Shown here piece after piece: positions 22,983 through 64,000 of a stretch of 64,000 nt of DNA. The stretch is from Saccostrea echinata. Its lineage: Eukaryota. Below the pieces are notes generated by a model. It was not told where the DNA came from. It saw only the letters and a program-made list of their open reading frames with translations, and searched no databases. The stretch covers positions 3,286,001 to 3,350,000 of the forward strand of contig NW_026889762.1 in assembly GCF_033153115.1 (NCBI RefSeq), written 5' to 3'. A program made the translations under genes and the position numbers. Every line of letters starts with the position of its first letter. Within the stretch, counting starts at the first letter, position 1.

Positions 22983-23564
22983 TTAAAATCTGAAAGGCGC
23001 CGGAGACGGATGATAATGATTGCGCCGGGGTGAAGGGAAGTATACCATATTTCGGAACTCATCTCTATATACCTCTGGAATCATGCCCATCGAGGAGGAC
23101 ACCATTTTCACAGAATTCCTTCCCAGAAGTCTACGCTCGTATTCGATCAGTTGGCGCCAAAATCCAGCGTTGGGGTGCACGACGGGTCTGCGTTTTTTAC
23201 AATGCTGATAAGCCTGTTCCAGAGTCATCCGATGATATTTTATTAAATAAGCCATACATATAGTGGCAGATCGACTAACCCCTGCAACACAGTGGACAAG
23301 AGTCCGCCCACCGCGCATGTGCACTTGGTTGATTTTGTCTGCGCACCTGTCGAAGTATGCACTCAGTCTAGCTTGAGGTGCGTCCTCGATGTGAATTTGA
23401 ATACATTCCAGATTGGGTAAGTTCAAATTCGGAATTTCCAGGGTCAGGTTTATGATGTTAGTGATGCCGAAATTTCGGACTCTGTCGGTCTTTACCGCAG
23501 CCGCGCTGCTGAGGAACAGGTGATCGGTGATTTGGGCTATTTGAGAAAACATGGCGAGATCCAT
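22983..23564 (-). CDS. DUSP14: Atypical dual-specificity protein phosphatase, DUSP14/18/21-like, 193 aa, single coding exon
   Basis: QITDHLFLS start, IEDAP general-acid loop, catalytic VHCVAGVSRS, AYLIK, PNAGFWRQLIEYE. The exact vertebrate orthologue is uncertain. Confidence 0.95.
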   Translation of the reverse strand: MDLAMFSQIAQITDHLFLSSAAAVKTDRVRNFGITNIINLTLEIPNLNLPNLECIQIHIEDAPQARLSAYFDRCADKINQVHMRGGRTLVHCVAGVSRSATICMAYLIKYHRMTLEQAYQHCKKRRPVVHPNAGFWRQLIEYERRLLGRNSVKMVSSSMGMIPEVYRDEFRNMVYFPSPRRNHYHPSPAPFRF

Positions 23565-40400: not shown

Positions 40401-43351
40401 CATCAGTAAATCATCTTAATATTCATCAGTAAGTCATCATCATCAGCAGTAAGTCATCATCAGCAGAAGGTCATCATCATCACTAAATCTTTTTAATCAT
40501 CATAAATAAGTTATCTTTTTTCATCATTTGTAAGTCATCTTCATTTGTCTTGAGGAAGGTATCTTTATTGTCATCACCAGTGAGTCATCTTCATTGCTGT
40601 CATCAATTAATCATCATCAATATCTTCTTTTTCATCAACACAAAAACATCATCATAGTCATCACGATTGTCACTTGATTATCTCTGACTCATGATGAAGA
40701 TAATCTTATTGTCATTTCTTGATACTTTTGTATCAGCTTTTCCATATCATTGCTAACATTCAATTGAGTGATTTATTAGAAGAGTTTTAAAGGTTTGATA
40801 ACACACTCTATTTGAATTAAAAGTTAGAAAAGTTGAAAAGGATTCAAATTTTCAACAAAAATACAGTATTGATGGGAGCTCTGTCTTTCTACTGAATACA
40901 TAAAACAATTATAACATTGGTGAGTTAAGTTGTCTTATTATCTTGTTGAATTATCTAGGTCATGGAGGGGACATCAATATCTGTGATGAGACAAAGATGA
41001 CCCCGCTGCACCGCACTGCTATGTCATCTATCGACACTCATCTGTTTAAGCTCCTGTGTGACAATGGAGCTAACATAAATGCTGTGGATGGTCGGGGAAA
41101 CTCACCACTGCTTGCAATGTGTGACGTTGTAGGGACAGATGATTACGATTTTTTTGAGGACTGGTCAACAACGAGTGATGACACGTATGAGGATAGCAGT
41201 GCCACCTTGTGTGTACAACATGATTTCCTGGATTATATGTTGTCACTGAAAAACATTCAGGTACTCAGAAAAATAGAAACTAACTTCAGGTGATATTGGT
41301 TGTTGAAGGTAATCCAACATTTATTGTGCAAGTTTTACAATATTCTATAACTTCAAAAATTTATTGCTGTGAACCATTTATATAATGTAATTGTATATTT
41401 ATACTGACTGTTCACTCAGTCAAGAAAACTGATAGTTGCAGATGGATTTCAAACTAACAAATCAAGTAAAAGTTGTCATGAATATTAGTTGGTGCACAGT
41501 AATGAAAGTTGGTTTATAGTAAATATCAATACTGCTGGAGTCTTAATACACAATTTTATGATGTGGAAAGCAACATTTTTGAACGATTATCTTAAAATTG
41601 AAAAAAAAAAATATGTAATCTATCAAAAAATCTTTGTGGAGGCCAAAGAAAAATTCTTTGGAGAAAATAAAAATTAAATGATTAAATGACAGAGTACTGT
41701 GAGAGGTAAAATATTGATGGCCAGATATGATTTTTCCTTCATTTAGTTTCTTGACATTATGAAGAAATGCATCAACGTATTTTATGGTCTAAAGTGTAAG
41801 GTAATCTGATCAATTTTCTAGGTAAACATAAGTAATAACCGTGGTCAGACAGCTCTGTTTCACTGTGTCCTGAGGGGGGATGTGCTGGCCTGTCAAAAAC
41901 TGCTAAAGGCAGGGGCGGATCCATCAATTAGAGGAACGGTGTGGGAAACCAGGAAACGCAAGAGGTGGGAAAAAATAAGTTTTCTTCAATAAGTTGCTTA
42001 GGGTTTTAAACTTATGTGTATGTACATATAGACAATTACATGAAATGTATAATGTACAATTTAGTGCAAATACGATAGCTTATTTCCAAATTTTCATGAT
42101 AGATTTACAGAACTAGTATATGCATGTATGAAAAATTTAGTTCAGTTATATTGTAGATAAGATCTTTTGCAATCTTTTTCTTTAACTTGGTGCTTAGATA
42201 TCACTCAGGATTCATATTATGTAATTGTTCTTTTCATATTTCAGGAAACTGTCTCCGATTTTTGTGTCATTTTTATCCATTCCTCTCCAAAGAGCACTTG
42301 GCTTCCAGAACACATATCACCTACTGGCTGGCGCTCCTCAACAGTACGCTCACTTAGTGGACGCAGGTAAGAAAGTACTTATCATTGAACACATATCATC
42401 TACTGGCCAGCGCTCCTCAACAGTACACTCACTTAGTGGACGCAGGTAAGAAAGTACTTATCATTGAACACATATCATCTACTAGCCATGCAGCGCTCCT
42501 CAACAGTACGCTCACTCAGAGGATAAAAAATTACTTATCATTGGGCATAATGTATATTGTACATACATGTATTGATTTGTCCAACTACAAGTACTTATTC
42601 AAATATTGATAGATTAATGGCATGAATTCAAAATTATTAAGAAGTTTTTTTTGTGTGAAAATAATGTAAATGGTACTAAACAACCTTTGGGTCAAAGAAA
42701 CCTGTTGCAGTTCTACAGCTGAGCATTTGGTACAATGTATTAGAATTGTCTCTAGAGAGAGGGAGTGGGGAACATCTGTAGCATTATGTAGGTCATTTAT
42801 ATAATTTAATGTAAATGTTACTTTTAACAGGTTACTTCAACAGGAAAGAGATCACAGAGGAAGTGAAAGAACTGCTAGACAACGAATTTCCAGAATTTGA
42901 ACACTTAAAAATAGTTTCTGACAAATTAGTGAGAATGATGTGTGGTCGAACCACAGCTGGACTAAGACAACTCGCAACACGGACAATCTTTAAACAAGTC
43001 TTCCTTCAAAGTACCAAATCTCTGGGAAAACTCCTGCCATCGACTTCAATAAAATCCTGTCTCAAGAATGCTGATCTCCGTCAGATGGATGTTTATGATG
43101 AGTACATCAATCTGGTTCTGAACCGGACAGTACTTCAGGCTCTGGTTGTTCGGCTGGGACTTCCCGGTGATTCTCTGGTGAACTTTGAGGTGGAGCTCTT
43201 CCTCCACCAGATGGCAAGTCGGTTCTCCGGATTTAAGGTGGTTCCCCCCGAGAGTCCGTACAGTGGTGAGAGTGGAGAGAGTTCTGTGTCAGATGACAGC
43301 GATTTGACCAGTAGCCAGGACGAGGGGGATTCTGACCTTGAGTATTGGTAA
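37462..43351 (+). CDS. Ankyrin-repeat protein, possible SOCS-box-like C-terminus and acidic tail, 528 aa
   Basis: Exons 37462-37594, 38772-38908, 39131-39237, 39760-39881, 40959-41260, 41822-41964, 42245-42366, 42831-43351. All GT-AG, phases consistent, 1587 nt. Ankyrin motifs RTPLF..LLVENGANVN, GKSPLEL, MTPLH..LLCDNGANINAVDGRGNSPL, GQTALF..LLKAGADPS. Confidence 0.88.
37990..38808 (+). repeat. Tandem array of acceptor site plus exon start (46-49-bp units, 16 decoys and the real exon)
   Basis: Units start at 38001, 38049, 38098, 38146, 38195, 38243, 38292, 38341, 38389, 38438, 38487, 38533, 38582, 38628, 38677, 38723; the real exon starts at 38772. Each is preceded by tacag. Confidence 0.95.
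39871..40660 (+). repeat. (CAT)n-CAGTAAGT array derived from an exon end plus donor
   Basis: The exon ends ttcatcatcatca|gtaagt and is followed by about a dozen cagtaagt copies plus variants, separated by (cat)n. Confidence 0.92.
42308..42543 (+). repeat. 79-bp tandem triplication of exon end plus donor
   Basis: Units at 42308, 42387, 42466; donors gcag|gtaaga at 42367 and 42446; third copy degenerate. Confidence 0.95.
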
Positions 43352-49418: not shown

Positions 49419-52400
49419 CTACCTAAGTGAGGGTAGATTTATAGTTATGATGGACTCCGAGTCAGTTCCACATAAGAGAGTCTGTGATTCAATGTCTATG
49501 GAGTTTACAGGGAGAATGTTGTCGTCGATTAGAGAATTGATCTCCATTTTACTGTTGTCTGTACACAGCCACTTGTTAACTGTCTCACTTCCTCCAAACT
49601 GGAATGAGGGATTAACGGAGAAATTCGCTCCACCAGAACCAGCACCTGTCACATAGAACAATATTGTTATGACCTCCACTACTGTGTATGTGTGTTTTTT
49701 TTTATGTACTTAATAGGAATTTTTGCATTTTGGTATTCCTACTCATCACATATCATCAAATAGATACAAGAATCTTTTAAGGCATGCAAACATTCTCCAA
49801 CTTCTTTAAAACATGCAAACACTTCTGATGTTTGTGTCATGTATTTTTAATATAATAAAAGCACAAGCAGCATATATGTTGTTTTTTTTTTGTTGTTGTT
49901 AATATTGCACTTTAAATCTAATATCTTTAACTACTTCTTGTATAACATTGAAAAAAAAACAACTCTGGAATTATCCGATTATTTTTTTGGATTCCTCACA
50001 CCACATACTCCCCCAAAGCTTTACATGTTTGTCCAGAATCATCAGTTACACCAGAAAACCATTACATACCTGTACCTGTGAGTTGTGTTTGTACCATGTG
50101 ACTAGAACCAACCAATGAGGAGTCCCAGTGCCACACAGCGCCATCTTCTGAGCAAGTGAACAGGTGGTCTGAGTTTGTCTTGTGGAATTTGACTTCCCAC
50201 ACTACAAGTATATAAGTATCAATCGTTAATGTATTAAATGTGCAGATGTAAAAAAAACAAGAGGCCCACAGGCCACAGTTTGTCATGCGAGTCACATTTC
50301 TCTTCCTGACAAAAAAAATATGCTAATAACTGAAAGACATTCACTCATAAAAGTTTTTTTTTAAGGATAATGATTTGCAAAAAGGAAATCTAAATTTTGA
50401 TTAAAATTTGAACAATTTTAGCATACTTTGTTGTGCAACATTTGTCAGAAAATCATTTAACTTGACATTTATAAAGAGTAACAGTAACTTATCCATTTGA
50501 GTTACTCTCTTATCAGAGGGATTTACAGAACATTTAAATTTAAACTCTCCAAACTGCTACTCACTGGGACCACTGTGGGCCTCTAGGAGAGAGACGGGGG
50601 ATCCCTCCTGTCTAAGATCCCAGATCCCCAGCACCCCATCACGACTTCCTGTGGCCACAATGTGGGGCTGTCCTGGGTGTCTGTCCACACAGTGCAAAGA
50701 GGTCAACTCCCCACTCCTAAAATAGTATGGATTCATTAACTCATGAGAAGATCACCTCAAAACACACAAAAGTTGTGTCTTAAGTGACATAATGTGATTT
50801 CATTATACAGATAGTCACATGCTATAGTTTCCTGTAGATGTACATGTATCATTATTTACTACTGTTGTAAATCTGTTTCACTTAAAAATTGCCAAACTAT
50901 TTAGATAGTGAAATCCATCTGTAATCATGGTAATGTATAGTCTGGTTCTAACAATGAATGTTATTACACAGAATCATAAAAGAGAGGTCACCTTTACACC
51001 AATTAGTCTGTGTACTTACACTGAGAGGGTCTGTGAGGGGGCATCTGAATTCGATCGGAGGTCAAAGGTCTTCAGTTGCCCTGACGAGTTGACAGTTATG
51101 ATTTCTGTGTGTTTCAGGAATATAACATTGTTGATAGTTGAACTGTCTGCTTTTTCTGAAGGAAAGAGAATCTTCGTTAAATTGATGCACTTTTTGAACA
51201 GCTTTGTTTGGTTAATATACATATTTATTACCTATGACTCGTTGAGGTGTCTTCTATTAGTTTTACTTACCTATGACTCATTGAGGTGACTTCTGTTTGT
51301 TTCACTAATTTATGACTCATTGAGGTGACGTTCTGTTAGTATTACATACCTATGACTCGTTGAGGTGACTTCTGTTAGTATTACATACCTATGACTCGAT
51401 GAGGTGACTTCTGTTTGTTTTACTTACTTATGACTCGTTGAGGTGACTTCTATTAGTTTTACTTACCTATGACTCGTTGAGGTGACTTTTGTTCTGCATT
51501 AAGTATCACAAGTCTCCCATCTTCTCCTGAGGTGACTATAGTTTTATCTCGCACAGCTAGACATGTGCAGGGACATAAATGGTTGCCATGGTGATGAAGC
51601 TTCTCCCACTTATTTGTTATTCCTAATGTCTAAAACATTATACACAACAAATTAATCGTAGAATGAACTAAAAACTGAGCATTGGAGGATTAGGAGAAAA
51701 AAAATGGGCTAACACTAGTTTCCTCTTTCACGTTTAACTTTGATAGACTGTATAATTTAAAATGGTGTAGCATTATTATTTCTTCTCTTATACACTGTAA
51801 TTGCAGCGTTCTTTCTTCCTTACACAACTGGTTCTGATAAACGCACAGGCGCTTGACGTTTTTAACCTTTCTTTCCATAAATAAAAAATCCCCCATACTA
51901 TAATAATAACAAGGTTCGTCACAGTCGCCATCTTGAATTTTTCAGTTCAGCTACTCCGCCTCGATTTTTAGTCTACAATGTGTTTAAAATTAACGGATAC
52001 AACCGTTTCCCTCAAGTACTTACTTTAACTATGCCTCCACTTTCGGGCAATTCAACTCAAATCACATTAAATCCTCTCTAATTCTTAAAATGTCGCTTCA
52101 AACTCAGTCTACTGCTACCGATTCCGTGAAACTTAGAAAAGGGAGGCCGGAAGTTGATGTTGTTATGTAAATGGGAATTCCCTCTACTTTAATTTCATTG
52201 GTTAAAAGAAATATGACGTTTCGCGGGAAAATTCATGCAAAGACAGTAACAAACTTTTTCGACATGTTGAATGCTGAGCAGGCCGATTGCTTTCCATAAA
52301 CATCAGAAATAATATGTGAAACATTTTTTTTCTTTTATTTTGTTGAAGAAAAAATCAATTATTCTTGGTCCTGGAATTCTGGTTACTAATTTCTCATGTA

Positions 52401-55400
52401 AACCACAGACCCCTCGCATTCTGGCATAAATATTTCTTACTTATAATGGTACTATTTTCAGTGTTTGGAAGCGATGAAAATTATATACATTTATAATTCT
52501 ATAAGACCTTTGAGAAATTAAGTTTAATTATCGTCAAATGGCTTGATCAAATAGTAAACTGGCGGATTTAGAGGGGGCAGGGGACCCGCCCCCTCTAATT
52601 GAAAGAAAAGCCAAATACCATGCTATTCCCTGCATGAATGTGATTGAAATATTTGTACAAGCCAGGACCCCCCCCCCCCCCCCCAATCAAGGCTTCGCCT
52701 AAGACCTACGGGTGGCCTCACAGATTATATTGCCATTCATTTATTTTTAAGGGAGGACAAATTGATTCCGGGGGGGGGGGGGGGGGGGGGGGGGCTGGGC
52801 TGGCAATTTTTTCCCAGCTTTATTTCCATGTCAGTGAAGGACAATTTAATTTATTTTCAAAATCTGCCAGACCCCCCCCCCCCCCCCCCCCTAAATTTCA
52901 GAATTAAATTGTAAACGCTTTTATGTTTTGACAATATAATTGAATTTTTATATGGATTTAAGCCCCCATTTACTCTCAGGTGTGTAACTACGCCTCTGTA
53001 TGTAAAATACAGTGTATACTATTCAGCCTAAATATTTCAGTGTTTCTTAGATAGCAGTTGAAAAAGTACACAGTCTTAGGCTAAATATATATTTATTTGC
53101 AAACAGTTGGGGACTATAGATGTATCAATATATATTACTAAGTTATTTATAAAATACGTACCAGTAGTCTAGAACTGCTCAAGCTCCATTTTTAAATAAC
53201 TCTCAAGATATCCACCAATCAGAAAAGGGCTTTCCCGGATTGTGACGTTCTAACATCAACTTCCGGCCTCCCTTTTCTAAATTTCTATTTTTTCCCAATT
53301 TTGAGACTAAAAATTCCCAATTAAACTGCCAAGGAACAGACTATGATGACATTGCAATTCTTTTCATATGAAACGTTGTATGAGTTATCTAAATGTTTCA
53401 CTTCCTCTTAAATCGAAAGTAGAGATCAGTAGTAATATGGCGGTACGTCTGTGGTTATGTAGATAACATAGTCATGCTAGTGTCTTTTTTTGACAACTTG
53501 AAAGCATGACAATCAGTGTTTTCCCCAGAAAATTTTTAATGCATGGGGGGAATTTTGCTGAACTGACGGCGCGCGGCGTGTCTCGTTTGAGTTACTTATA
53601 CTTTATATTTAAAATTAAAATACAAATGCATTTTTCATTTACATATAATTATATATTTTTAATTTAAATGATAAATATATTTTGAATAAATTTTCAATCT
53701 AACTTTAAAAAATTTAAACAATTGAGTTCTTTTTTGTAAAATAAATTTAATCATTAAAATTGCACCTATCTTATTTTCCTCTAAAGCCATTGTTGAATTT
53801 TTCAAATGTGTTGTGTTATTCTTTCTTTCAACAAACTGAGTATATGCCCCTAGTGACCCCCCCCCCCCTTATTAGTCCCCTACCGGTGAAACCGGAGGGG
53901 ACTATAGGTTTCCTCTGAGTCTCTCCGTCCGTCTGTCTGTCTGTCCCTCTGTCTGTCTGTCAGTCTGTCCCACTTGGTTTTCTGCACTTTTTTCCTAAAC
54001 GCTTGCAGATATTGAGCTGATTTTTTCTTGATAAGTTACAGATCAAGTTTGCATTCCGTTCCGCTTCATTGATTTTTGCCGGAATTACAGCCTTTTCAAT
54101 TTTTAGTGGTTTTCCGCAATTTTCTTCTAAATGCTTTCAGATATTGAGCTGATTTTTGGTATGTGACTTTACCTTAATTAGTTATAGATCAAGTTTGCAT
54201 TTCGTCCCGCTTCATTGATTTTTGACGGAATTGTGGCATTTTCAATTCTTAACGGGAACCAGATTACACTTGCCGGTAGGGGACTAGTATTGCTAATGCA
54301 ATACTTGTTTTAATTTACTTTATTTTTTGGATGTTCCTACTTTTAAAGTTATCTATAAACAAAAAGGGTGCACATTATGTAGCACCAATGCTTACATGTA
54401 AATATTGTAACAATATATTAATATTGGTGTCTGATTTTTTTTCAACGTAAGCTGTTGAAATGTAGGTCATTGTGAAATTGTGTATTAAAGCACGTGCGCT
54501 TGAACAAAGTACTTGCCCATAGTTCACAGAGTAAATAATCATTGATAATGTTTTGAATATGTTTTATCTAAGCATGTTTATCATGTTTATGCTAAATAAT
54601 AGCTTAAAAATTATGTGTTTAACTAAAGAATCATTTTTGATGTCGGAACATCAATACTATTTATAGAATGACCTGAGAATGTTGGAAAAACCCACATGTG
54701 CATTAACAAGTGTATTACTTTCACCGTGTGTACATCTGAGAGCAACTAATTATTTTTTCCTGGTTATAAATATATTTTTAATCAAATAATAGCTTAATAC
54801 TTAGTAGCATACCAGTAATAAACATAACTTGACAGCTATTGCATCATACCGCATACCGTGATTCACATCGAGTTCACCACAGGTGCGAAACATGTGTACA
54901 GTACACGCTAGGATTCTAGAGATTTGAATTGTTTTACTAATAACTGATAACATTTAAAGTAAATCATCTTCTTAAAAATGGTAAACCATTAATTTTCCAT
55001 GCATAGCGGGAAGCATAGCAGCAATGTGTGAAGCATGGCGGGAGATCGTGAATGCGGTACCGCCATGCAAAAACGGCCTGGGGAAAACACTGACAATGTG
55101 AGAACAGGGGCATTAATGTGTATAATGTATACAGTCAAACCAACATTGAATACTTGTTGATTATTCTTTAAACAATTCAAGTGTGGATTTAGAGGTAATG
55201 AGGTAAGAATATATGCAATTGAAAATAAATTTTGTTTGTTGACATGACAGAAAATTCCCCTTTGTTCTTTTTCGACACTATTTTTTCCAGTTGAATCTGT
55301 ACCAGACCCCTTCCCAATGGGTAGGGAAAAAAAAATCACCGATTTGGTCAAAAGTTTAGTGGAGCTGAGCTTCATTTTTGACGTCTTCTTTTCTAAAGCT

Positions 55401-57514
55401 AGAACTGAATCTGTGTCCTCAAGCTCAAAGTGATTTCTGCATGAAAACACAAAGCTGTCAATTGTGTACTTTTTGTTTTAATACAAACCTGAGAGGCAGT
55501 GTGGTATTTGTATAAAGTCACTGTCCCTGTTGACGAAGAGGCCACTATCTCATCAGATCCAATATACTGAAAAACAAAAGACGCCTCAATCACATCTCAT
55601 CCATCATGTATAATATATATAACAGGATTACATTAATGCTGGTATTGTGCCTTGTCAATTCCACAGGTGCACCCAAGGTCCAAGGATATTTTTATTTGTC
55701 TTATTTCATAAACTATTCTTCAAGCACACATTTACAATGTATTCCATTTGCAAATTCCAAAAATAACGAAGAATAGTTGTCTTAATTATTTTTTAAAAAA
55801 AATACCTGCAGTATCATAGAATACAGAAGGTTAATCACTTTAGTTTGTTTATATTGGACCCATCTCAGATATCATATCAGGCCTAAAATATCATTTACCT
55901 ACTTCATCAGACATGTCATCAAAATGTGTCATCTGATCTTGTTTCGGTAGATATTTTTGTCTTAATTGTTCTATTTAATTGTCCATACATTTCAATATAA
56001 TCCGAATATTTGTTGTTACAAGTGAAAAATACTACAAAATTTGGAAATGTGAGAGCAGATATTATGAAAGTGATAAGAAAAAACACCTAGTGGATTACTC
56101 TGGAGTTACAATTGTTATTGAAATCAAGGGAAAAGCCAGAGGTCTAAGAAAAAGTTCAGGAAAATTTCGTCAGACAGTTTGCTTATATCTATTATGGTCT
56201 GTTTTGCTGCAGATTCATCCTTTTTTGCTACAATGAATAAGGTCTTTTGCTTTTAATTAGGTTTAAAGTGAAAAAAGAAAGATCTGTTTGTTTTTTGAAA
56301 GGTGGCGAAAAAAAGGTAGGGTTACTTCGTACAATGAAAAATTACCAAAGTCAGCAATTATCAATTATGAAAATAAGAATTGATTATTCACATTTTCATT
56401 TAAGATGACCGCTAATCAAAAGTTGGCTACAATCGTAACATCACTTGCGTACATGTACTTAATCCAATGAAAGTCCACACACTTTTTAACTTTGTTGATC
56501 TTCTCTACTGAATTACAATAGTTACACAGAAGACTGGGAAGTCTCAGTATTTATACAAACTTGACATCATGTGATATAAACAAATATGAATAACAGATTT
56601 CATACGATCAGACCTAAAATTCCGGAATCATTACTGTAGGACTATCATCCTTGACAAATGTTGAAGATGATCATTTCATCACTACCTCTAGTCCTGTGAC
56701 ATCTCCGTTGTGGGTTATCTCACACTTCAGTGTAGGCTCCAGTCCCCCTCCCTCGTCATATTCCACAGAGTTCTGTGTCTGCGGCCCCAAATACCACAGA
56801 GATATTTTGTTTTCCTAAAAACATGATAAAAACACAAAACATTACAACAAATAGTTCAAATACTTTTAATATTGTGTGAAAGCGATCTTATCATTACAGA
56901 ACCTTCTTCATGTGTGTGGATTTAATGTACGGATTTAAGCCAGGTTTTCTTTTTGTATACATGTAATGTATAATGTATACAGTCAAACCAAAAATGATAT
57001 TCATCTGATTTTTTAAATTTTATTGGTCTCCTCAGACCAGTTTTCGACAATTCTGCAAACTTTTTTTTTTAAACATATTAAGCATCTTAAACTCTTCTTC
57101 TTTTGTCAATGTTTCAACTCTGTGATAAATAAGTCATTGAAAATGCTTATGAAAATTAATTACCTGCTCTTCTGAGAAGCCAAAAAATATACTTATACAA
57201 ATAATTAAAGAAATAAAATAAAAAATTGAACAATTTTACTTTCTTACCAATCAAAACCAACAAACAAATCAATATTGAACGAAATCTTTTCTGGTAATAT
57301 GTCAATTTCTCACCCGGTGTTGTGACCTAGTTTCGATTTGGACATTTCATGTTTACAGTAAATTTTATCCTAAAAATTTTTTTACCTTGTCGTCCCAGCT
57401 ACCTGTAACAAATGTGTCTGAACATTGTAACATCTGATTTTGACTCGGCTGCCATCTTATTTTGTTGATTTTTCTCGAAACAAACTTCACGAACGGTTGT
57501 ATGGTCTCCGCCAT
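49419..57514 (-). CDS. NUP43: Nucleoporin Nup43 (WD40), 381 aa
   Basis: Exons 57386-57514, 56686-56814, 55489-55566, 51467-51629, 51020-51155, 50565-50716, 50070-50201, 49419-49645 (1146 nt, phases consistent). Motifs KFVSRKINKIRW, FVTGSWDD, HNGDVTGL, TSGEDGR, TVNSSGQLK, HCVDRHP, WEVKFH, HLFTCSEDG, LLCGTDSE. Confidence 0.95.
51226..51489 (-). repeat. ~39-bp tandem array of Nup43 exon 4 end plus donor (real site and 6 copies)
   Basis: Unit gaagtcacctcaacgagtcatag|gtaagtaaaactaata on the minus strand; fills about 235 of the 311 nt of intron 4. Confidence 0.95.
52133..53280. mobile_element. Non-autonomous TIR element in Nup43 intron 3
   Basis: Perfect 29-bp inverted repeat ttagaaaagggaggccggaagttgatgtt / aacatcaacttccggcctcccttttctaa. 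Confidence 0.75.
53514..55092. mobile_element. Non-autonomous hAT-like element with 5-bp TSD
   Basis: acaat|cagtgttttccccag ... ctggggaaaacactg|acaat. Confidence 0.8.
53873..54308 (+). mobile_element. HINE/Pearl-like element nested in the hAT-like element
   Basis: Sub-terminal IR tagtcccctaccgg / ccggtaggggacta, (gtcy)n microsatellite, internal direct repeats, 3' hairpin agtattgctaatgcaatact. A close copy lies at 62476-62941. Confidence 0.85.
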
Positions 57515-61207: not shown

Positions 61208-61754
61208 CTGAAAACAAAAACCTACAAAAATCCAAAGTATTAAAATCGCATTAAAAGAATGCATTTTTAAAATTTTTATTGAAAAAAAAATTTTTATTAC
61301 ATGTAAATACATTTATTGTTAACATGTTTAGACTAAAATACGTTCATTATTAACACTCTATTCAACATTTCCCACGATAACTCTAGTCCAATGCAACTCT
61401 GTCCAGGCCCCGTCTGATACATCTCTACTACTACTTATAATATTAAAATGTATTAGGCCCCTATATGTATACTGGACAAAAAAGTTAGGGATCATGATTT
61501 TGAATTGTTTTCCCAAAACAATTATAATAAATTTTTTACGTTATAGTTCAACCATACTTTCTTTAACATGTTATTGATAAGAAAATGCTACCTGTAGGGT
61601 CGTGCAATTCATGCCCAATTCATGCTTTACTGAATGCCGACACAGGGTGAAAAACAAAGTGATTCAGGGTATACACAAAGTTAACGAAATTGTTTATTTA
61701 AATACGTGTTCGAAGTTGTGGATATTTTTTGATGACCCTGTGACATTTCAAGCC

Positions 61755-63250
61755 ATGAGACGTCACTTAACCGGCTTTGAGGCAGCCCAAGCTATAGATA
61801 TGCTTCAATCTGGCAATACTCAGAAAACTGTTGCTGCACACTTTAATGTGTCCCAAAGTGTCATTTCACGATTATGGAATCGATTCCAACATACTGGTAC
61901 CGTTGCTGAGAGACCACGTTCTGGTCGTCCGAGGTCAACCACGGCTCGTCAGGACCGTTATCTGGTCAATATGGCAAAGCGGCAGAGGTTCCAGAGTGCT
62001 GTTAGGCTAAATACAGACTTTCAAACAGCAACACGAGTGCGAGTAACACCACAGACAGTTCGAAACAGACTCCATGAGGCTAATATCCGAGCATTCCGAC
62101 CAGCAGTCCGGCCCAAACTGACGCCAAGACACAGAACAGCCAGACTCCAATTGGCACGAAACCATGTCAATTGGCAACTGCGTCACTTCATGGACCCCTG
62201 TTCTTTTAATTAACAGATGGGTCGCGCTTTTGTGTAGATTTCCATGACGGTCGTAGACGAGTTTGGCGTATGACCGGTGAACGTTATGCAGATTGCTGTG
62301 TTGCTGAGCATGATCGTTTCGGGGGTGGTTCTGTGATCGTTTGGGGTGATATCAGTATAACCGGAAAGACTTACTTGCATGTTATCGCAGGAAATCTTCC
62401 AGGGATAAGATTACAAGATGAGATACTGCACCTAATTGTCAGGCTGTATGCAGGTGCTATCGGTGATGATTTTATTAGTCCCCTACCGGTGAAACCGGAG
62501 GGAACTATAGGTTTCCTCTGAGTCTGTCCGTCCGTCTGTCTGTCCGTCTGTCCCTCTGTCTGTCTGTCAGTCTGTCCCACTTGATTTTCCGCACTTTTTT
62601 TTTCTAAACGCTTGCAGATATTGAGGTGATTTTTGATATGTGATTGTATCTTGATTAGTTAAAGATCAAGTTTGCATTTCGTTCCGCTTCAATGATATTT
62701 GTCGGAATTACTACCTTTTCAATTTTTCAGGGTTTTCCGCATTTTTTTCTAAACGCTTGCAGATAATGAGCTGATTTTTGGCATGTGACTTTACCTTGAT
62801 GAGTCATAGGTCAAGTTTGCATTTCGTTCCGCTTCATTGATTTTTGACGGAAGCATGACATTTTCAATTTTTAACGGGAACCAGATTACACTTGCCGGTA
62901 GGGGACTAGTATTGCTAATGCAATACTCTCAGAATGCTTGTTTTAATGGACGATAATGCTAGACCTCACAGGGCTCGCATCGTAACAGACTACCTGGAAA
63001 AAGAAACCATTGAGCGAATGGACTGGCCGAGTCTTTCGCCTGATTTGAATCCCATAGAACATGCTTGGGACAAGCTACAGCAAGCCATTTCAGTGCGCCC
63101 AGTACTCCCTAGGAACCGCAAGGAGCTTTCTGCAGCAATCGGCGAGGAATGGGCTAGATTGCCGCAGATCTTCTTCCGAGACTTATCCGCAGCATGCAGA
63201 GGCGTTGTCGCGCGGTTATTCAAGCACGGGGTGGTCATACAGCATATTGA
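61755..63250 (+). pseudogene. Tc1 transposase pseudogene
   Basis: Paired-like HTH, RSGRPRSTT, DGSRF (for DESRF), GGGSVIVW, MDDNARPHR, WPSLSPDLNPIEHAW with D34E spacing. Frameshifts near 62190-62215 and ~63180, plus a 466-bp insertion. Confidence 0.92.
62476..62941 (+). mobile_element. HINE/Pearl-like element inserted in the Tc1 catalytic domain
   Basis: Same structure as 53873-54308. Removal restores GDDFILMDDNARPH with no TSD (T^T insertion). Confidence 0.9.
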
Positions 63251-64000
63251 ACACATCAAATCACTGCGCAAACGGTTACATCTGAAATTTTCATCCTTTA
63301 CCAAGGCTGTTTTTCATTCCGTTTTGGGGGTTGTGTGACAATTAATCTCAATGCACGTTAACGCTTCATTCATTTTTGATAACACAATAAAAATTGTTTG
63401 TTTACTTGTTAAAGATTTATATTATATAGTTGTAATGGAATATATTGTTATTTGTTGTAAATTAAATAATTTATAAATCATGATCCTTAACTTATTTTGT
63501 CCAGTGTACAATTAATCAATCCTACATTAAAATGTAATGCTGTTATTTTATTCACGTATTGAAGATAAGAAACAGAGATCAATGTTATAAACAATTGACA
63601 TCTAAATATTTAGAATGCATCTTTACAACAAGTTCGTTATTTCAATGCTTATTTAATTTGTATGTAAGCAAATCTTACAGAATTAAAATCCTCAAACCCA
63701 GCTTGCTAATACTTCTTTCAACAAAATTCCACCTCAGACTGAGTCGATCGGTAAGTAGGGCTTGGACGATATATCTAGATATCGATTATATCGATTTTGT
63801 GTGAGGGCGATCCGCATATCGATACATATGAAGAAATATCGAAATATCGCAAAAATTCACATGTTTTCCTTTAATTACTTAACATTTTGGGTTTAATATT
63901 TGAAATAAATATGCTAAATATAAATATGAATATGAAATACATGATAATTAACACCACTTGTGTAAAATAATTTTCTTTGACAACAGATATACAACTTTTT

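What the first reader, a model, noticed from the sequence alone, without database searches (positions are those of the whole stretch)
51226..51489. Nup43 intron 4 is mostly made of copies of its own upstream splice junction
Seen: six ~39-bp copies of the last ~22 exon nt plus ~16 intron nt make up about three quarters of the 311-nt intron. Five retain GT donors (gtaagt, gtatgt, gtaata). Any distal donor includes GGT AAG TAA, an in-frame stop. Several copies have AG|GT junctions resembling recursive splice sites. This shows the pattern also occurs in a conserved housekeeping gene on the opposite strand. Without the array the intron would be about 76 nt.
Basis: partly seen in the sequence, partly recalled or inferred. 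Interest (0 to 1): 0.7.

Follow-up and report, generated by a model that had tools for sequence, protein, structure and literature searches.

The report
Splice-donor minisatellite in oyster Nup43
The end of one exon of a shellfish nuclear-pore gene, splice signal included, is copied six more times into the next intron, but the assembled RNA uses the original signal, so this is likely a harmless repeat of a kind already known from lancelet and human genes.

Summary
Nup43 intron 4 (51466-51156, minus strand, 311 nt) contains six extra 39-nt copies of the exon 4 donor junction. They fill 235 nt (76%), and five keep GT. One correction: the unit is 27 exon + 12 intron nt, not 22 + 16. The unit occurs nowhere else in the genome. 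Spliced RNA contigs from 3 studies join the first donor to exon 5. No distal joint appeared, though contigs drop rare forms. Any distal donor would add a stop at codon 169. Recursive splicing is unsupported: the four AG|GT sites lack a pyrimidine tract, and a relative ends this exon in TG. The array is a new example of the known junction-spanning minisatellite (amphioxus 'mirage', human F7 IVS7). The scan has noted this kind before on other DNA, twice in this genome. One lead goes further: in a 1.75-Mb sample, 5 of 66 non-transposon minisatellites span a Pfam-confirmed donor, against 2-3 of 163 random control units (p 0.02-0.05). Three more such arrays sit in the neighbouring ankyrin gene.

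The parts
49419..57514 (-). Nup43 coding span, 8 exons, 381 aa
   Evidence: RNA joints for all 7 introns; frame check; PDB matches to NUP43
51467..51629 (-). Nup43 exon 4; ends in phase 1 (ATA G|)
51156..51466 (-). Intron 4, 311 nt, GT..AG
   Evidence: joint skipping 311 nt in X6, X2, X9
51220..51493 (-). 39-bp minisatellite, 7 units; unit = last 27 exon nt + first 12 intron nt; the first unit is the real junction
   Evidence: TRF 51224-51493; register table
51461..51469 (-). D0, authentic donor TAG|GTAAGT (8 of 9 to CAG|GTAAGT); the one used
51422..51430 (-). D1 pseudo-donor TAA|GTAAGT (7 of 9)
51383..51391 (-). D2 pseudo-donor TAG|GTATGT (7 of 9)
51344..51352 (-). D3 pseudo-donor TAG|GTATGT (7 of 9); TACTAAC lies about 25 nt upstream but there is no pyrimidine tract
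51304..51312 (-). D4 dead donor TAA|ATTAGT; this unit carries a one-base insertion (40 nt)
51265..51273 (-). D5 pseudo-donor TAG|GTAAGT, identical to D0 over 9 nt
51226..51234 (-). D6 pseudo-donor TAG|GTAATA (6 of 9)
51459..51461 (-). In-frame TAA (codon 169) met by any transcript that reads through D0
51156..51231 (-). 76-nt remainder of the intron with the real pyrimidine tract (12-nt Y run) and acceptor
51020..51155 (-). Nup43 exon 5

Best explanation
A 39-nt stretch spanning the exon 4 donor of Nup43 stands in seven tandem copies, the assembled RNA uses the first donor, and the six downstream copies are likely silent passengers. Inferred steps: (1) one local tandem duplication of exon -27..+12 was followed by expansion through slippage or unequal exchange, as the mosaic of shared variants suggests. 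(2) The duplication was tolerated because the first unit keeps the exon and donor intact. (3) The spliceosome takes the most upstream functional donor, as shown for human F7 IVS7. (4) Rare transcripts from a distal donor would stop at codon 169 of 381, with four junctions downstream, and would be removed by nonsense-mediated decay.
For: First-donor joint in X6, X2 and X9, 3 of the 4 runs laid, from 3 studies; the fourth, X1, has no contig across this junction. A relative's contig (X12) joins exon 4 to exon 5 with the same length. No joint to D1-D6 appears in either lay, which covered 6 different runs of the 20 offered. The unit is found only here. Donor positions are not preserved: 7 of 54 cells differ from the unit majority at -3..+6, against 6 of 144 in the exon-derived -27..-4 part (p 0.047, but shared variants are counted more than once). 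One copy lost GT and one lost +5G. Variants are shared in a mosaic, the intron parts of units 0 and 5 and of units 2 and 3 being identical. Same build and outcome as F7 IVS7 (PMC1557585) and amphioxus mirages (PMC3087553).
Against: All RNA evidence is assembled contigs, which drop rare variants, and the RNA label of these runs is a guess by the tool. D5 equals D0 over 9 nt, so strength alone does not explain the choice. Human 6-16 and CBS do use one or two extra pseudo-donors. The scanning rule was shown in mammalian cells, not molluscs. No relative's intron 4 could be obtained, so the ancestral short intron is inferred.
Confidence: 0.82

Rival explanations
1. The pseudo-donors act as a leak that sends part of Nup43 pre-mRNA to decay, so copy number tunes Nup43 dose.
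For: Five GT copies, one identical to the real donor; every distal choice gives a premature stop. Two human genes of this build use extra pseudo-sites.
Against: No distal joint in 6 runs. Donor positions decay at least as fast as the rest of the unit. NMD targets would be under-represented in these contigs, so the test is weak.
Confidence: 0.1
2. The intron is removed stepwise by recursive splicing at the AG|GT copies, giving normal mRNA.
For: AG|GT at D2, D3, D5 and D6; zero-length use keeps the frame. TACTAAC or CTAAY lies about 25 nt upstream of D3 and D6. Recursive splicing is reported in short human introns as a minor, stochastic mode (PMC10156609, passages). Mature mRNA cannot distinguish it.
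Against: 0 of 4 sites meet Y5+N0-4YAGGT; they are 14-18% T upstream against 41-73% for 7 of 7 real acceptors. However, 4 of those 7 real acceptors also lack a run of 5 pyrimidines. The AG is copied from the exon end, and a relative has TG there. Two copies lost the G.
Confidence: 0.05
3. The array is a transposon fragment or an assembly artefact.
For: Intron 3 of the same gene holds a high-copy transposon.
Against: 7 of 7 genome matches are at this locus. The units differ from each other (28-38 of 39 identical). Contigs of run X1 also cover the array, with 0-5 differing letters.
Confidence: 0.02

Closest known systems
Human F7 intron 7 37-bp VNTR (PMC1557585; abstract, introduction and discussion read)
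   Same: The first monomer spans the exon-intron boundary; 5-9 repeats of similar length; downstream donors silent; first donor used.
   Different: The F7 unit is 4 exon + 33 intron nt with identical pseudo-sites. Here it is 27 + 12 with diverging pseudo-sites, and the array is most of a short intron. Length polymorphism and activation of pseudo-sites are untested here.
Amphioxus 'mirage' minisatellites, Adh3, BflGb6, BflGb9 (PMC3087553; abstract and passages of section 16 seen)
   Same: Tandem duplication of an exon-intron boundary in a marine invertebrate; many but not all units keep splice signals; normal splicing unaffected; end units more diverged; both donor and acceptor types occur, as in this window.
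   Different: Different phylum. Haplotype length variation and somatic instability are reported there and were not testable here.
Human 6-16 (IFI6), CBS intron 13, lamin B2 and PDGF intron 4 minisatellites (as summarised in the introduction of PMC1557585; originals not read)
   Same: Reiterated donor in the following intron.
   Different: 6-16 and CBS use extra pseudo-sites; no such use was seen here.
Recursive splice sites (PMC10156609; passages)
   Same: AG|GT inside an intron.
   Different: No pyrimidine tract, AG not conserved in a relative, no lariat evidence.

Membership tests
Junction-spanning minisatellite (mirage / F7 IVS7 type) | Tandem array whose terminal unit spans a real exon-intron boundary | tested here: met
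Junction-spanning minisatellite (mirage / F7 IVS7 type) | Splice signal reiterated in the intronic units | tested here: met
   5 of 6 keep GT
Junction-spanning minisatellite (mirage / F7 IVS7 type) | Regular splicing from the most upstream donor | tested here: met
   RNA contigs, 3 of 4 runs and X12; minor forms not visible
Junction-spanning minisatellite (mirage / F7 IVS7 type) | Locus-specific unit, not a dispersed repeat | tested here: met
   7 of 7 matches at this locus, control pattern 0
Junction-spanning minisatellite (mirage / F7 IVS7 type) | Copy-number polymorphism among alleles | tested here: inconclusive
   X1 contigs cover the array with sequence differences, but none spans it
Recursive splice site | 3' splice site with pyrimidine tract joined to GT (Y5+N0-4YAGGT) | tested here: not met
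   0 of 4 YAGGT sites (motif)
Recursive splice site | Lariat or intermediate reads at the site | not testable with these tools
   only contigs were offered
Recursive splice site | Conservation of the AG|GT | tested here: inconclusive
   a relative's exon ends in TG (X10, X12), but its intron was not seen
Transposon fragment | Dispersed copies in the genome | tested here: not met

The most novel reading that the evidence does not exclude
In this oyster genome minisatellites are born or expanded preferentially at splice donors, several-fold above chance. That would point to a mutational process tied to transcription or splicing, with the Nup43 array as one of probably thousands of products and a ready natural test of first-donor selection in an invertebrate.
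Probability: 0.3. Interest if true: 0.6.

Novelty: new member of a known kind. Interest (0 to 1): 0.22.

Why it matters
On its own it matters little: one more tolerated junction repeat in a housekeeping gene. It shows that a short intron can be three-quarters decoy donors and still be spliced correctly, which extends the first-donor rule from mammals and amphioxus to a mollusc, at contig resolution. The wider value lies in the sampled excess of such arrays at donors. If that holds genome-wide it bears on how minisatellites arise, how introns lengthen and how new introns are gained, and it warns gene predictors about false donors in bivalves.

Tried and rejected
Intron 4 in relatives: the search for related loci with exon 4 on metagenome contigs gave 474 pattern hits and none confirmed. 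A 20-mer scan gave 2 loci, both matching only over the 20-31 nt word in unrelated context. All 20 runs offered were contigs, none raw reads. X1 has no contig over 51160-51250 or across the exon 4-5 joint; nothing is drawn from that. The idea that the whole 'intronic' part of the unit is degraded exon was dropped: clear homology to the exon stops at -27. Cassette-exon use of a unit was enumerated: the only stop-free in-frame paths are zero-length (recursive) ones and a 6-nt insert from a GAG acceptor. Folding does not single out D0: unpaired probability 0.49 against 0.12-0.70 for the others. Pfam does not recognise Nup43 exons 4 and 5, which shows how insensitive the single-exon Pfam test is. 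One search was uninformative. A possible nested gene at 51931 was dropped, as 51844-52130 is a high-copy transposon end. Paper searches for a bivalve or genome-wide treatment listed none by title or abstract start; one search returned the mirage and F7 papers. The library lacks most subscription papers, and the original Adh3 mirage paper was not read. No supplements were read.

Full report
Gene and intron. The minus strand holds an eight-exon gene from ATG 57514 to stop 49419 that reads 381 aa with no internal stop. Exon 6 matches human NUP43 best (E 8.5e-22), and exon 4 matches residues 108-166 of it (E 7.6e-05). RNA contigs show joints at all seven introns. Intron 4 is 51466-51156, 311 nt. 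The label 'rock oyster' comes from unchecked earlier notes on this genome, not from a test of mine.

The array. TRF finds 6.9 copies of 39 bp at 51224-51493. In register there are seven units of exon -27..-1 plus intron +1..+12; the first is the real junction. Units are 28-38 of 39 identical to each other. Five of six extra units keep GT, four have AG|GT, and they fill 235 of 311 nt. One 15-mer occurs four times, while 1 of 1000 shuffles had any repeated 15-mer. A 20-mer of the unit with one mismatch allowed has 7 matches in the 923-Mb genome, all here, so this is no transposon piece.

Which donor is used. Twenty runs were offered, all contigs, and six were laid. X6, X2 and X9, from three studies, join 51467 to 51155. 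X12, a more distant relative, joins the same exons with the same length but ends exon 4 in ATT G, not ATA G; X10 shows the same letters as loose ends. X1 has no contig across the junction but has intronic contigs in introns 3, 4 and 5, so it holds unspliced RNA or DNA. Its array contigs differ by 0-5 letters, which shows that the array exists in that sample too. No joint to a distal donor was listed. Contigs drop rare variants, so this shows the major form only.

What a distal donor would do. Exon 4 ends after 499 coding nt (phase 1). Reading on gives G, K, stop at codon 169, with four junctions downstream. By established knowledge that is an NMD substrate; this was not tested. Cassette use of a unit shifts the frame or contains a stop, apart from zero-length paths and an implausible 6-nt insert.

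Selection on the copies. Donor positions differ from the unit majority in 7 of 54 cells and the exon-derived part in 6 of 144 (p 0.047). Shared variants are counted repeatedly; by eye there are about five independent changes in each part. The safe reading is that donors are not being preserved. Weak selection against decoys is possible but not shown.

Recursive splicing. None of the four YAGGT sites meets the minimal motif used by Hoppe et al. (PMC10156609, passages; test). Their upstream 22 nt are 14-18% T, against 41-73% for the seven real acceptors. Against my reading: four of those seven real acceptors also lack a run of five pyrimidines, a branch-point-like word lies about 25 nt upstream of D3 and D6, and that paper reports minor recursive splicing in short introns. 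The AG is simply the exon's last two bases, and it differs in the relative. I put this at 0.05.

Known kind. PMC1557585 (abstract, introduction, discussion) describes the F7 37-bp array and four other human genes, with the most upstream donor preferred. PMC3087553 (abstract and passages) describes amphioxus mirages at donors and acceptors that leave splicing intact. Both leads came from earlier notes of this scan (35 findings in at least 21 genomes; parkin and pyruvate carboxylase in this genome). I read the papers myself but did not test those loci.

Is the pattern more common than chance? The neighbouring ankyrin-repeat gene (Pfam Ank) has three more arrays, at an acceptor and two donors, placed by reading frame and not by RNA. 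The window was chosen for this feature, so I sampled 35 blocks of 50 kb (1.75 Mb) elsewhere. TRF gave 215 minisatellite candidates. I dropped 131 as recurring in the sample, 6 as simple, and 12 for period under 18 or GC under 15%, leaving 66. All 193 open frames running into their ends were scanned with Pfam. Five arrays have an exon at E below 1e-4 that ends at a donor inside the first unit: spectrin, bMERB, myosin tail, GNL3 and EF-hand, in five different blocks. As control, 420 random unit-sized stretches were drawn, 269 passed the same filter, and the first 163 were used (447 distinct frames). Two have a junction inside the unit, three if a doubtful Torsin case is counted. Fisher p is 0.022 or 0.046; the odds ratio is 6.6 with a 95% interval of 1.2-35. 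Limits: small counts; junctions called by eye; blocks placed at round coordinates and weighted to a few contigs; no control for arrays favouring genes in general. Also, the share touching any recognisable host exon is similar (5 of 66 against 9 of 163). The excess is a lead, not a result.

Verdict. The array is real, correctly described apart from the unit's phase, and best read as a tolerated junction-spanning minisatellite: a new member of a known kind. Interest 0.22. The donor-biased origin is the part worth a genome-wide test.

Noticed in passing
window 37985-38809 (+): About 17 copies (49/97-bp period) of an acceptor junction of an ankyrin-repeat gene; the last copy gives the open exon (acceptor near 38771).
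   Followed up: partly
window 39870-40486 (+): Degenerate 17-23-bp array reiterating a donor (ATCA|GTAAGT) of the same ankyrin gene.
   Followed up: partly
window 42308-42523 (+): 2.7 copies of a 79-bp unit spanning another donor (GCAG|GTAAG) of the same gene.
   Followed up: partly
window 51844-52130 and inverted pair 52132-52160 / 53250-53280: Nup43 intron 3 holds the end of a young transposon: 40 scored copies at 97-99% identity out of 270 candidates, many as inverted pairs 1.4-3 kb apart. RNA cover there likely comes from other copies.
   Followed up: partly
L068:2498-3080, L080:5802-5961, L095:3310-4132, L103:4385-4502, L104:6012-6978: Donor-spanning minisatellites behind exons with spectrin, bMERB, myosin-tail, GNL3 and EF-hand matches.
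   Followed up: partly
L104:9001-10000, L159:4240-4799, L159:9571-9798, L161:7442-7983: Further arrays that look like donor or acceptor copies by eye but have no Pfam support; not counted.
   Followed up: no
window 22986-23564 (-) and 33291-33911 (-): Two intronless-looking dual-specificity phosphatase ORFs (Pfam DSPc).
   Followed up: partly
window 49352: A 19-nt insertion in the Nup43 3' UTR in runs X1, X6 and X2 relative to the assembly.
   Followed up: no
window 61581-63335 (+): Tc1-like transposase ORF in two pieces, interrupted by a 145-bp-period repeat element; family name from recall.
   Followed up: no
L160:9979 to L163:10000: A roughly 2-kb unit repeated about ten times head to tail, each with internal 16-55-bp repeats.
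   Followed up: no
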